A stretch of 55,714 nt of DNA, filler included, from Candidatus Woesearchaeota archaeon (GTDB taxonomy: Archaea; Nanobdellota; Nanobdellia; Woesearchaeales; JACPJR01), in assembly GCA_016187565.1 (NCBI GenBank). It is 5 parts of 5 records of this genome, joined end to end, with 100 filler letters (N's around TTAATTAATTAA, not from the genome) between each part and the next. Parts side by side here need not be neighbours in the genome. Positions count along the whole stretch, not along the records: positions 34,275 to 55,714 come from JACPJR010000023.1; 4 more parts are not named here. The stretch is one strand, 5' to 3'. The position numbers are program-made. Below, piece after piece: positions 48,001 to 55,714 of this stretch. Each line of letters opens with the position of its first letter. Within the stretch, counting starts at the first letter, position 1.

Positions 48001-51000
48001 TTCTTTAACTTTGTCGAATACTTCCTTAATGGACCTTTCCACGTACATATTAGTGATTATAGAACATGGGACTTGTATATAAACCTTACTAAAATTAAAT
48101 TGTAGTTTAAGAATAACCTCACTAAAATTAAAGTACAGTTTAATTAAATAGTTCTTTCAGAAAATTTTTACAAATTATGCAGTCCGTGCTTCTCCAGCTA
48201 AACCTCCTCTTCTTCCCTATCCTCATTATCATCATTGATCTTTTCTTTGATGATGTCTTTGATGACTTTTGCCTGTTCTTCTACTTTTTGGAGTAAGGTA
48301 AGGTCGTTAAAGTTTTCCTGTGCACAATCCTCACAGTAATAGTCCCGAGAATCTTTGATACTAAAGACTGCTGGCTCATCGCAGATAATACATTTCTTCC
48401 CCATTACTCCAGAGGATGTCTCCCTGTTTTAAATATCTTTTGGTTTTTTCGTCGAGGGGTGCAAAGAATAAAGCCACTGTTTAATTACTACTAAGTAACA
48501 TAGATTTATATAATCGGTTACTATTTTCTATGCGAATATGGGAAATTTAAAGGCTTTATTTGATATCTTAAATGATCCGGTATATTGCAGATATACTGAT
48601 GCTGGAAAATATAGTGTTGAAGAAGGGGGTCATCTTATAACGTTAAATCCTAGAGAATTACTTGAAGTTGGAAGAAGTCATCCAAGAGAACAAGTAATGA
48701 TAGCGTATTTTGGTGAAACTCCTACAAGAGTTTTGTATGTTGGAGAAGATTCACTATCTATGCAAAGAACACTTGACGATTTAAGACTACCCACTTCTTG
48801 GTCATCAAATCTTGGCGAAAAGGTTTTTTATCTTTTTAGGGTTCATTTAAGAGACATTAATCAAGGTCCTGTCTGTTCAGAACAGCAAGTTGCTGAAGGT
48901 AAAGAGCGTCAATTTGAATTAGTTCTCAGGAGATTAATTGATATCTATCGACGTTCTGAATCAGGTAATTTTTAACGCAGTTTTTACGCTGCTGAGAATA
49001 CCACTTTATCTGGAGGGATCTCTATTTGAGCGTCGTATGCGGCATGTTCACTAAGACGAAATAAAAAATACACTCTATCTCTTCCAAGGAATCTATGCGC
49101 AGACAAAATTCTTATTGGGGTTTGCCCTAAACCAAGATCTCTCCAGCCATGGTAAGTTCTAACTTGATTTCCAGAAGGTCTCATTAAAAGTCGAGCAGTT
49201 ACCTTCAGTTCCTGCATATTAAGACTGCCGATCTTATTTACAAAACTGTGTCTGCCTGTTTTATGAAATAAAAATGTTCTACCCAATCCTTCGGCATTAT
49301 CCAAGATATATCTAACAAATTGTTCTGTATTTATTTTTGTAGAAGAGATTATGTCGGGATCAAATGCAGCTCTGATTCCATCATGTAATTTAGATAACCC
49401 AAACAAAAAAGTGTTATTGAATTTCCTGGAGTATCCTCGAGAAATGCTTCTCCTTTTGAATAATGGTTCAGAAAAAAGTCTAATACCTTTCTCCAATTGT
49501 TCAAGAACAGTAAGATAGCCCAATCTTATATTGGGAACATTATGAGCAGCAACTGAATTGTAAAAATAAGTTAGCCTTTCCAGAAATTCTTGTAATAATT
49601 TTATGTAGTGATATTCTCTACGGTCTGGAGTTGAAATACGATAACGGAGGATGTCTTCGATCTCTTTAATTCTGTTATGATCTGAGATATAGTTAAAACT
49701 TTCACTATCAAGAATAGTCCGAAAATTTGTTAAGTTCTTGTAACTCATCTTTGCCTACAATATTTGATAGATATATAAATTTTCTCAAAACATTTACCGC
49801 ACAAACGTACTTATCAAACTTCCCTGGATATCATAGGTTGCTTCTTTCTTAAGATCTCGTGGATGAAAATGTGGTCCAAAGATAACAAGCCTTCCTTCTA
49901 ATTCATTATTTAATTTGTTGTCAAGACCATTGCGGTGCATGGGCTGGTCAGGATGGATAAACACCAGATCATAAGCGCTCAAATGATGGTTACGAAAATC
50001 ATCCTGAATAAACCGTGCTCGGCGCATGCTTGGAATAACAGAGAGCGATTGTTGAATTTTTTGTGCATTCTCAACTAACCATGGATCGAATTCAATGCCG
50101 GTTGCATTGGTAAACAAAGAGGCAATTAACACAACACGACCATCACCAGAGCCAAGATCAATAAAGTTTCCATAGTGGTGAAGCTTTATTTTGGTAAATA
50201 ATGTAAACACCTCATCAGAGGGTGCAATTCCCCAAAATCCAATCTGTGTATCACGCAATGGCAGCATACCTTGCCTGAGTAAGGACTGGGAGAATTCATC
50301 ATACTTTCTTTTAATTTCTCGATAGTGGGCTTCCATGGGTAGTTGTCTTACGCTGTCTTTTTTATCTTTTGTGGCATGTCTGATTTATTTCTTGGTATTT
50401 CTACTTGGACTCATTCCATCGGCACTCCTGTCCAGAGTGTCCAATCATTACTTGGTGCATAAGCCCCAAAGATGAAATAGGGAGGATAGGTCCTTCCAAA
50501 GTATGAATATTGGATGTCTGTCCAGGAATTTTGTGGTGCGCCTACGCGGGTAGAACCGGATAATCCATACACAGGACTGCCAAAGTGACGCCATGTTTTC
50601 ATTAAGCCATGAAAGTCGCTGTTATTGGTAGAAGCATCAGCTCCTGGCTCTACGGTGTAAGCACCTTTGTAACCATATTTTTTGAGCATCTTTACCACCT
50701 CACGGACAGGAGCATTACCTTCTCCTGGCGCAAGATGGTCATCTTGATATCCATAATTATCAACCAGATGGACATTACCGATCATGCCTGCCTTTGCTAA
50801 ATCTTCAAATTGGGAAACCAACCATTTATCAAAGCCAGCATCATTCTGCTCCCTTGTTTTCGCTGGGTCATCCTGATAATATTTCCTCCAGAGATTTGCA
50901 TGGGCAGTATCAATAGTTACTTTAATGTGCTTTTCCGCCAGTTTTTCTGCTTCTTGTTTGTTTATCTGTGGGTGATAGTAGGGATTATTAATGATGCGAC

Positions 51001-54000: not shown

Positions 54001-55714
54001 CGATTAAATTCAATTTTGTCAACAATGGCATCAACCTCTGCTGCATTTTTGGGATGATAGCGAAAAAAGAGGTCTGGTAAGGTAACAAACTGCAGTTCGC
54101 GCGCCATACCGTACACGGAAGCAGGGTTTTTACTTCCTTGTTCGACAAGGTCTATCCAGATTCCTTTGAGGGTTATCTCAGCGCTTTCACTGCTCTTACT
54201 ACCCGTCATACTGTCATCATAATATCCTAATCGTTCATCAATAACACGAAGCTCACGGACAAGCTGGAAGAGTTCTTTGACCATCTTGCCAATGGTTGCC
54301 AAAAACTGACTTACTTTATCCTGTTGAAGACCTATTCGTTGTTGGGCATTCCCAAAAAAAGCTGAGTGCTCAGAGGCTGCAAAAAGATCAGTAATCTTTT
54401 CAATTTCATAGACACCCATCTCACTTCTCAGATAATCGAGTATCCAGAAATAGGGCTCTTCCACCGAGAGGTTATAGGACTGAAAATGAAGTCTATACCG
54501 GTGATGTGCCTTGGGATATCCTGTATTTGCAAAAACAGACGTTCTATTTCCTACTCTACTTACCCCTACTTCTTCAAATTCTTCCTTAAACTCGTATTTC
54601 TTCAAGAGTGCTGAGCTTGTCATCTTCTTTTTGCATTCTTTAACGATTTTCTAACTATTTTTATTCTTTAACTCGTTTTCAGAGCTTAAGCTGGACTTAG
54701 TACCTATAAATGTATACCTATATAAACTTTTCTACATTTGTTTATTTAAGAACCATCGAAACCCTTTGTGATAGTTATTTCTATCTCTTTGATGGGTGGT
54801 ACATGACATCACATTCTGGTTACCAGTTTTTGTTTGAATATCTCTATCTCTCCTGCTTCATACTGTTCATGGTCCCATCCCAAATCAACCTTATCACCTT
54901 GTTTTCTGGGAATCACATGCACATGGATATGCGGTACTTCCTGACCAGCAGCCTTACTGACATTAACGAGGATGTTCATTCCTTCTGGTTTGAGTGTTTT
55001 TTCCATTTGTTTGGCTACCTGTTGAACGCCATGCATGAGCAGCGATAGTTCTCCTTCAGGGATTTGACTAAGTTTCTCATAGTGGTTCTTGGGAATAACC
55101 AAGGTGTGTCCTTTTGCAGCAGGATTGATGTCTAAGAAAGCCATGACTGTTTTATCCTCATAAACACGTGCTGCGGGAATTATTCCTGTTCCAATCTTAC
55201 AAAAGATACAGTCAGTCATATTTTCACCATTCTATTTTTCTTGAAGGAATTGACTGGATTATTCTAAAAATAGACTCAGTATTGGAGCAGTCTGTCTCAT
55301 AGTATTTGCCATCTGCTGAAGGTAATTTCAGTTGTACACAAAATGTGGACAACTCAACACCATACTCCGATTCCCTTTTTTTGAGCATACTCCAATAATT
55401 TCTTGGGTTATTGCTGTCTGTTAGGGCTTGAACTATATCTATAACTGAGAAAAACCATTCATTATTATGCCATATTCTTCGTATTTTCTTGTCTTGAAAT
55501 ACGACTAAGGCAGTATCTTTATCTTTCATTTTAAGCTTTTCTCAATAATCTTCTTTTCATCTTCAGTTATTCCGTATGTATTAACCTCTAGAGGATATCC
55601 CTTAATTCCTTATATGGATTTATTCCTTGTAATCTCCATGTGCCAAATAAACTCATCATTATTTGTGTCGTCTTTTTTCCCTGTTCCGTCCTTAAACATC
55701 CCATTATCTTTTCC

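What a model noticed while it worked through the whole genome (the two positions that open the first line are those of the whole stretch)
50411..54623. Phylum-wide core module: orphan helical protein + TIM-barrel nuclease-like + nucleotidyltransferases
A 485-aa protein of no known family (C22:18892-20349) and a 721-aa endonuclease-IV-like TIM barrel with a large insert (C22:16137-18302) form an operon that in relatives also holds the nucleotidyltransferase-HEPN gene (here C17:2899-3714); a 619-aa paralog with two Pol-beta folds (C34:29395-31254) is as conserved as housekeeping genes. They likely make up an essential Nanobdellota-specific nucleotidylation/removal switch (GlnE-like writer, TIM-barrel eraser, coiled-coil target) rather than a toxin-antitoxin pair. 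The gene linkage and this reading are new.
Evidence so far: Orphan in 59 of 61 phylum genomes, TIM barrel in 57 of 61, long NTase in 61 of 61 at 30-70% identity. Orphan next to TIM barrel in 20 of 24 loci. Short NTase within 10 kb of the operon in 15 of 23 other genomes where it was listed, contiguous in G025, G017, G074, G096, G091, G070. Model: beta-sheet body with a long coiled-coil arm, no clear PDB match.
(Added by a program. Inside this text positions count along the whole contig: they may not be those of the stretch shown here. "Call 12" and the like, gene names such as g00115 and contig names such as C1 are that model's own, and its searches are not shown. The text may have been shortened before it was handed on; [...] marks where a part breaks off. 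The agent that wrote the report below was given it as the finding of a first reader that could run no searches.)

Follow-up and report, generated by a model that had tools for sequence, protein, structure and literature searches.

The report
Nanobdellota core nucleotidylation writer-eraser module
Almost every sampled genome of a phylum of tiny symbiotic archaea keeps the same uncharacterised gene set (two nucleotide-transferring enzymes, a metal barrel enzyme and a family of related scaffold-like proteins), which likely works as a reversible nucleotide-tagging switch whose target is untested.

Summary
The orphan is in 149 of 151 phylum genomes, the barrel in 150 and the long nucleotidyltransferase (NTase) in 144. 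Orphan, barrel and short NTase are collinear in 48 of 80 loci.

New here:
- The orphan's beta body is KA1-like and weakly homologous to a small family, usually in three copies, found in 150 of 151 genomes. That family lies beside the long NTase in some lineages and beside the orphan in others.
- A variant barrel active site shares its history with a changed short NTase but not with the orphan. This is one event, not repeated covariation.

The barrel keeps the nine endonuclease IV metal positions in 128 of 150 sequences. Both NTases lack the toxin-antitoxin RNase/tyrosine motif. 'GlnE-like' and 'coiled-coil target' are unsupported. Best reading: a domesticated MNT-HEPN writer with a matched phosphodiesterase eraser (0.4). 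Rivals are RNA-end processing and a nucleotide signal. This scan found the trio and the small family before, separately, on other genomes. No complex prediction was available.

The parts
54719..54733 (-). Archaeal promoter-like element (purine-rich BRE-like run plus TTTATATA) about 96 nt upstream of the orphan start
   Evidence: Read from the sequence; no chance control, function not tested
53166..54623 (-). Orphan, 485 aa: KA1-like beta/alpha body (about 41-83, 286-357, 450-478) with a helical/coiled-coil insert (88-274); likely paralog of the small three-copy family
   Evidence: no Pfam, NCBIfam or PADLOC family
52635..53153 (-).
   Evidence: homologs by iterated HMM in 36 of 80 loci, mostly between orphan and barrel
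50411..52576 (-). 721-aa endonuclease IV/MJ1311-type TIM barrel with an insert of about 270 aa between strands 4 and 5; metal positions H129, H177, E482, D556, H559, H603, D612, H614, E643; conserved disordered tails (Y7; C-terminal WxLWS...PxE)
49794..50336 (-). SAM methyltransferase gene that follows the barrel here and lies nearby in 8 of 80 loci; accessory neighbour, not core

Best explanation
The orphan, the small helical gene, the metal TIM barrel and the short nucleotidyltransferase form a conserved operon across the sampled Nanobdellota, and with the unlinked long nucleotidyltransferase and three small KA1-like paralogs they likely make one reversible nucleotidylation switch. Shown: gene order, near-universal low-copy presence, intact GS-x10-DxD motifs in both transferases, the metal-ligand set of the barrel, and a shared history of barrel and short transferase. 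Inferred: the transferases are domesticated MNT-HEPN fusions that would put NMP on a protein hydroxyl, most likely a tyrosine outside the HEPN motif (the conserved Tyr7 in the barrel's disordered N-tail is one candidate). The barrel would hydrolyse that phosphodiester as the matched eraser. The orphan and the three small paralogs would form the scaffold or target-recognition part. Speculative: such a switch would report NTP supply from the host and gate growth versus dormancy.
For: Linkage. Presence. All five families are kept, dispersed, in the 0.49-Mb Nanoarchaeum equitans record. NTase motif G46/S47/D58/D60 is intact in 49-50 of 50 short and G188/S189/D200/D202 in 43 of 43 long sequences. 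Nearest families are MNT-type (PADLOC PDC-S09 2e-15, MntA 1e-7) and HEPN AF0298 (1e-7). Characterised relatives put AMP on tyrosine: MntA (PMC7641770, abstract), FhepTA (PMC13000451, passages), HalB (PMC13434031, passages). PMC3710099 (passages) describes domestication of MNT-HEPN into protein-modifying enzymes with loss of the RNase motif, as seen here. Seven barrel ligands align in register with E. coli Nfo E145, D179, H182, H216, D229, H231 and E261; H129 and H177 match H69 and H109 by strand motif. All nine are unchanged in 128 of 150. This genome has a separate endonuclease IV-like gene and a CCA-adding enzyme, so the module is not a stand-in for them. A variant barrel (H129E, H177 hydrophobic, H603Q, D612H) occurs with short-NTase D66N in 17 of 21 genomes, against 4 of 65 others. 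The variant group is a clade in the barrel tree, is not rejected in the short-NTase tree (p-AU 0.39) and is rejected in the orphan tree (p-AU 0.0003).
Confidence: 0.4

Rival explanations
1. An RNA 3'-end tailing, trimming or repair machine. The NTases would add nucleotides to an RNA end, the barrel would remove nucleotides or a blocking (cyclic) phosphate, and the KA1-like orphan and small paralogs would hold the RNA, as KA1 does for TUT1 and METTL16 on U6.
Against: The third carboxylate that activates a 3'-OH in Pol-beta, CCA and poly(A) enzymes (recalled) is His or Gln here. The proteins are no more basic than the background (median pI 8.5-9.0 against 8.5; barrel 5.8). KA1 hits from kinases score as high. 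Housekeeping neighbours are expected in small genomes.
Confidence: 0.25
2. A two-step small-molecule system. The NTases would make a nucleotide signal or nucleotidylated metabolite, the barrel would degrade or convert it, and a CBS-pair protein would be the reader.
For: Coupled active-site changes fit a shared small substrate equally well. A CBS-pair gene lies near the long NTase in 10 of 38 loci. There are weak hits to kanamycin NTase (E about 1e-3) and the adenylate cyclase NT domain (E 0.0015). The barrel's fold neighbours are mostly small-molecule isomerases.
Against: It does not explain the large coiled-coil inserts, the conserved disordered tails or the four KA1-like subunits. The CBS link was seen in one order only.
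Confidence: 0.2
3. The genes are separate core functions that are neighbours only through conserved gene order. The small family and the long NTase are not part of the barrel operon's job.
For: The long NTase is within 8 kb of the orphan in only 5 of 80 loci. All five families are dispersed in N. equitans. The orphan tree differs from the barrel tree. An unrelated gene (signal peptidase II) is near the orphan in 23 of 80 loci, more often than the small family is.
Against: The two NTases are close paralogs (HHalign probability 100). The small family neighbours both halves in different lineages and aligns with the orphan. In two genomes a shortened long NTase lies head-to-head with the orphan, 64-127 nt apart.
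Confidence: 0.1
4. An active toxin-antitoxin or anti-phage system (HepT/MntA-, FhepTA- or Hailong-like).
For: MNT-HEPN architecture; PMC6393860 (section 5) calls the cluster most probably a TA module; weak PADLOC and HalB hits to the NTase motif.
Against: Rx4-6H is found in 4 of 50 short and 20 of 43 long sequences; HxY in 0 of 43 long. The genes are near-universal and low-copy. The orphan has no match in phages or plasmids, and the long NTase none in viral contigs.
Confidence: 0.05

Closest known systems
Type VII HepT/MntA and fused FhepTA (PMC7641770, PMC13000451); DPANN cluster cls.004259 / NEQ050 (PMC6393860)
   Same: MNT domain with GS-x10-DxD fused to a HEPN-like bundle; the 2019 review already notes unusual DPANN conservation in housekeeping context
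   Different: RNase motif and acceptor tyrosine (R-x4-H-x-Y) not conserved; two vertical paralogs, one with a dead extra fold and a second bundle; linked to a metal barrel and KA1-like proteins; not on mobile elements
GlnD / GlnE reversible nucleotidylation
   Same: Pol-beta fold plus helical bundle; writer-eraser logic (inferred here)
   Different: No sequence relationship beyond the superfamily motif; the putative eraser is a separate TIM barrel; target unknown
Endonuclease IV (Nfo) and MJ1311 (PDB 3wqo)
   Different: 186-359 residues between the strand-4 His and the strand-5 Glu against 36 in Nfo; conserved tails; a variant lineage without three or four ligands; a separate endonuclease IV-like gene exists in this genome
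KA1 domains (SAD-B, Chk1, AMPK alpha C-terminal domain, METTL16, TUT1)
   Different: No sequence similarity; a 190-residue helical insert in the orphan; stand-alone three-copy family; Z not decisive
Hailong HalB
   Same: NTase plus helical bundle; weak profile hit (E 0.0016; 5.7e-6)
   Different: 26 bits against a cut-off of 190; no membrane effector among the conserved genes; core rather than patchy

Membership tests
Type VII HepT/MntA or FhepTA toxin-antitoxin | GS-x10-DxD NTase motif | tested here: met
   Short 49-50 of 50, long 43 of 43
Type VII HepT/MntA or FhepTA toxin-antitoxin | HEPN RNase motif R-x4-6-H | tested here: not met
   4 of 50 short, 20 of 43 long; K-x-x-E-H in 38 of 43 long instead
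Type VII HepT/MntA or FhepTA toxin-antitoxin | Acceptor Tyr two residues after the motif His | tested here: not met
   0 of 43 long; in the short protein the four commonest residues there are E, Q, N and D, 44 of 50
Type VII HepT/MntA or FhepTA toxin-antitoxin | Patchy, mobile-element distribution | tested here: not met
   Two or more matches in 144 of 151 genomes; long NTase not found in viral contigs
Type VII HepT/MntA or FhepTA toxin-antitoxin | Toxicity neutralised by AMPylation | not testable with these tools
   Needs expression and assay
GlnE / GlnD | Family profile score | tested here: not met
   GlnD 15 bits against cut-offs of 519-1255, no GlnE hit; HHalign probability <=8%
GlnE / GlnD | Two catalytically intact NT domains (GlnE; recalled) | tested here: not met
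   First fold of the long protein lacks GS and DxD
GlnE / GlnD | Modifies glutamine synthetase or PII | not tested
   Targets not searched; activity not testable
Endonuclease IV | Nine metal-ligand positions (ligand role recalled; residue identities read from E. coli Nfo) | tested here: met
   Seven aligned in register, two by strand motif; unchanged in 128 of 150; lost in part in 21 of 86 genomes of an enriched set
Endonuclease IV | Compact uninterrupted barrel of about 280 aa | tested here: not met
   Insert span 186-359 against 36
Endonuclease IV | AP-site cleavage | not testable with these tools
   Needs assay
Sugar isomerase/epimerase (DTE-like, MJ1311) | Fold | tested here: met
Sugar isomerase/epimerase (DTE-like, MJ1311) | Score over a named family's cut-off | tested here: not met
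   Best NCBIfam 27.7 bits against 305
KA1 domain | Structural match standing above background | tested here: inconclusive
KA1 domain | Same fold for the small three-copy family | not tested
Hailong HalB | Family profile score | tested here: not met
   26.1 bits against 190

The most novel reading that the evidence does not exclude
Nanobdellota share a phylum-defining machine of about eight subunits: two MNT-HEPN-derived transferases, a dedicated endonuclease IV-type eraser that is exchanged together with its writer, and a four-paralog KA1-like scaffold with a coiled-coil arm. It acts as a reversible nucleotide-status switch for host-dependent growth. It would be the first toxin-antitoxin-derived module fixed as core regulation in a whole archaeal phylum, and the first TIM-barrel de-nucleotidylase.
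Probability: 0.25. Interest if true: 0.9.

Novelty: new variant of a known kind. Interest (0 to 1): 0.7.

Why it matters
Nanobdellota are abundant obligate symbionts with very few known lineage-specific core functions. These families survive even in the 0.49-Mb Nanoarchaeum equitans chromosome. The 2019 dark-matter review named the MNT-HEPN fusion as a priority but gave it no partners. Gene order now supplies a candidate eraser, a candidate scaffold family and a natural variant pair, so the question can be tested directly with a few purified proteins. If the switch reading is right, it would point to how these cells couple growth to their host.

Tried and rejected
- Orphan family searches: no hit in Pfam, NCBIfam or PADLOC, PDB sequences or the ESM Atlas. 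Foldseek PDB gave nothing at E<=0.001. One viral match at E 5.7e-4 has TM 0.11 and rmsd 27.6 and was rejected.
- Small family: no shared Pfam family in 45 members, no PDB sequence hit; Atlas clusters are unnamed and archaeal. The first HHalign runs against the orphan with 12 and 22 members were weak (probability 0.9-16); only the 45-member profile reached 43.8.
- A GlnD-like His on strand 3: rejected, because H96 aligns with GlnD E137 and not with its His.
- Repeated covariation of barrel and NTase sites: the raw Fisher p (about 1e-9) is rejected as overstated; the independent-pairs test gives no support.
- Orphan monophyly of family f4 seen in the FastTree run (support 0.67) was not recovered by IQ-TREE, though not rejected (p-AU 0.14). 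The direction of any transfer is therefore unknown.
- Basic-surface argument for RNA binding: pI equals background.
- RNA runs: no RNA holder listed.
- Range outside the phylum was not properly tested. Named hits are Woese-, Pace-, Parv- or Nanoarchaeota and Rehaiarchaeum, or unspecific ('DPANN group archaeon', 'archaeon', one 'bacterium'). The tail of 917 profile hits could not be seen.
- Literature: searches found no paper on the operon. PMC8561730 (passages) was irrelevant. PMC8204110 has no occurrence of 'nucleotidyl', 'xylose isomerase' or 'HEPN' in its main text; its supplements were not read. The primary Hailong and MJ1311 papers were not held.
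Full report
Observation. The window's contig carries, on the minus strand, a 485-aa orphan (53166-54623), a 172-aa helical protein (52635-53153) and a 721-aa TIM barrel (50411-52576), separated by 12 and 58 nt. A TATA-like element lies about 96 nt upstream (no control). In 151 phylum genomes, all of one class, the orphan was found in 149, the barrel in 150 and the long NTase in 144 at a strict cut-off. The short-NTase query gave two or more matches in 144 (paralogs cross-match). 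Database names place the relatives in Woese-, Pace-, Parv- and Nanoarchaeota. The range outside the phylum was not properly tested.

Gene order. I took 80 orphan-centred loci, out of 149 genomes with a match, chosen by me for family spread, up to +-8 kb and often cut by contig ends. The barrel was present in 68 (66 on the same strand, 58 within 1.2 kb), the short NTase in 54, the small helical gene in 36 by iterated HMM, and orphan>barrel>short NTase were collinear in 48. Of 68 loci with the barrel, 32 have the short NTase within 300 nt. The long NTase was within 8 kb in only 5. In two genomes of one family a shortened form (about 360 aa) sits head-to-head with the orphan; its named relatives are Parvarchaeota proteins.

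The transferases. Both keep GS-x10-DxD. The long protein reads: dead fold, active fold, HEPN-like bundle, second bundle, C-terminal domain (HHalign with the short protein: probability 100, 94 and 86.5; HEPN AF0298 at E 1e-7). The third-strand position is His in 50 of 50 short and Gln in 43 of 43 long sequences. The toxin RNase motif is mostly gone (4 of 50, 20 of 43), and the acceptor tyrosine of HepT/FhepTA is absent (0 of 43 long), although K-x-x-E-H is kept in 38 of 43. Similarity to GlnE and GlnD does not go beyond the superfamily motif. PMC3710099 (passages) says that NTase-fused HEPN domains typically lose the motif and serve as substrate-binding parts of domesticated protein-modifying enzymes.

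A natural experiment. Among 86 genomes with both genes, 21 carry a variant barrel (E88Q, H129E, H177 hydrophobic, H603Q, D612H). I enriched this set for the two families showing the variant after first seeing it. Seventeen of the 21 have D66N in the short NTase, against 4 of 65 others; one further genome pairs H603Q with S47E. In a 25-genome subset the variant group is a clade in the barrel tree (support 100), is not rejected in the short-NTase tree (p-AU 0.39) and is rejected in the orphan tree (p-AU 0.0003; quick trees, no mixture model). So barrel and short NTase travelled or changed together while the orphan did not. The independent-pairs test gives no support for repeated covariation (median p 1), and adjacency alone could carry the two genes together. 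It is one suggestive event. It fits a matched writer-eraser pair or two enzymes on one small substrate. It also shows that the three-metal site is not universal.

How it most likely works. Shown: linkage, retention, motifs, fold. Inferred: NMP transfer by the transferases, hydrolysis by the barrel, scaffold role for the KA1-like proteins. I favour a protein acceptor (0.4) because the characterised nearest relatives modify tyrosine (PMC7641770 abstract; PMC13000451 passages; PMC13434031 passages) and the carboxylate that 3'-end polymerases use (recalled) is replaced. RNA-end processing (0.25) rests on KA1 binding U6 in METTL16 and TUT1 (PMC7229813 abstract) and on RNA-related neighbours. A nucleotide signal or metabolite (0.2) rests on the CBS neighbour and the isomerase-like fold. 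Unrelated neighbours (0.1) and an active toxin-antitoxin system (0.05) are less likely.

Prior knowledge. PMC6393860 (section 5; supplement searched and 30 of 67 DPANN rows seen; FTP files not seen) lists an MNT-HEPN fusion (NEQ050, 36 of 67 DPANN genomes) and an alpha-helical protein (NEQ484). That section does not mention the barrel or any linkage. In the N. equitans record the long NTase lies at 42.8 kb, the orphan at 80.3 kb, the barrel at 186 kb, the short NTase at 316 kb and one small paralog at 392 kb of 491 kb. If tags run in order, NEQ050 is probably the long NTase and NEQ484 is probably not the orphan; the tags themselves were not checked. Six searches found no paper on the operon in the held library, which lacks most subscription journals; supplements of PMC8204110 were not read and may list these families. 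Within this scan the orphan-barrel pair or trio was noted before on other genomes, and the small trio once. The excerpts shown do not join them with each other or with the transferases.

Verdict. The module is real, larger than reported and uncharacterised. The writer-eraser idea is reasonable but unproven; the GlnE label and the target assignment should be dropped. Novelty: new variant of a known kind. Interest 0.7.

Noticed in passing
L033-L060, upstream of the orphan (for example L056:7363-7755): A signal peptidase II (LspA, PF01252) gene lies next to or near the orphan in 23 of 80 loci, all outside the window's order; unusual for archaea (recalled).
   Followed up: partly
L096:5153-5935 and 20 other loci: A truncated Rqc2/NFACT protein (about 260 aa: end of the middle domain plus NFACT-R, no N-terminal domain) and a YhbY gene lie upstream of the orphan in 21 and 20 of 80 loci.
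   Followed up: partly
L196:7390-7935 and 9 other loci: A stand-alone CBS-pair gene lies near the long NTase, in several loci between it and the small KA1-like paralogs; possible nucleotide sensor.
   Followed up: partly
L161:1291-2424, L162:1279-2367, L163:1276-2358: Short (360-377 aa) form of the long NTase lacking the dead first fold and the second bundle.
   Followed up: partly
L048:3094-5325: Short NTase fused to a C-terminal coiled coil of about 450 aa (743 aa in all).
   Followed up: no
L182:2116 and 2903; L166:1498-2247: Extra short-NTase-like paralogs in a few genomes.
   Followed up: no
window 48984-49748 (-) and 48538-48975 (+): Two ORFs (254 and 145 aa) without a Pfam family downstream of the methyltransferase.
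   Followed up: no
window 44240-46851 and 46876-48048: Proteasome beta-like gene and beta-CASP RNase (aCPSF1-like) in tandem, then an AAA-type ATPase; names from reading the sequence, ordinary.
   Followed up: no
L002:6637-7290: A 217-aa gene without a Pfam family directly upstream of the long NTase; similar-sized His-rich-start genes flank the long NTase in other loci, homology not tested.
   Followed up: no
L169 (G000:C10:43000-46609): The third small paralog lies between an RNase HII-like gene and the CCA-adding enzyme; a CCA-adding gene is also near the orphan in 4 of 80 loci.
   Followed up: partly
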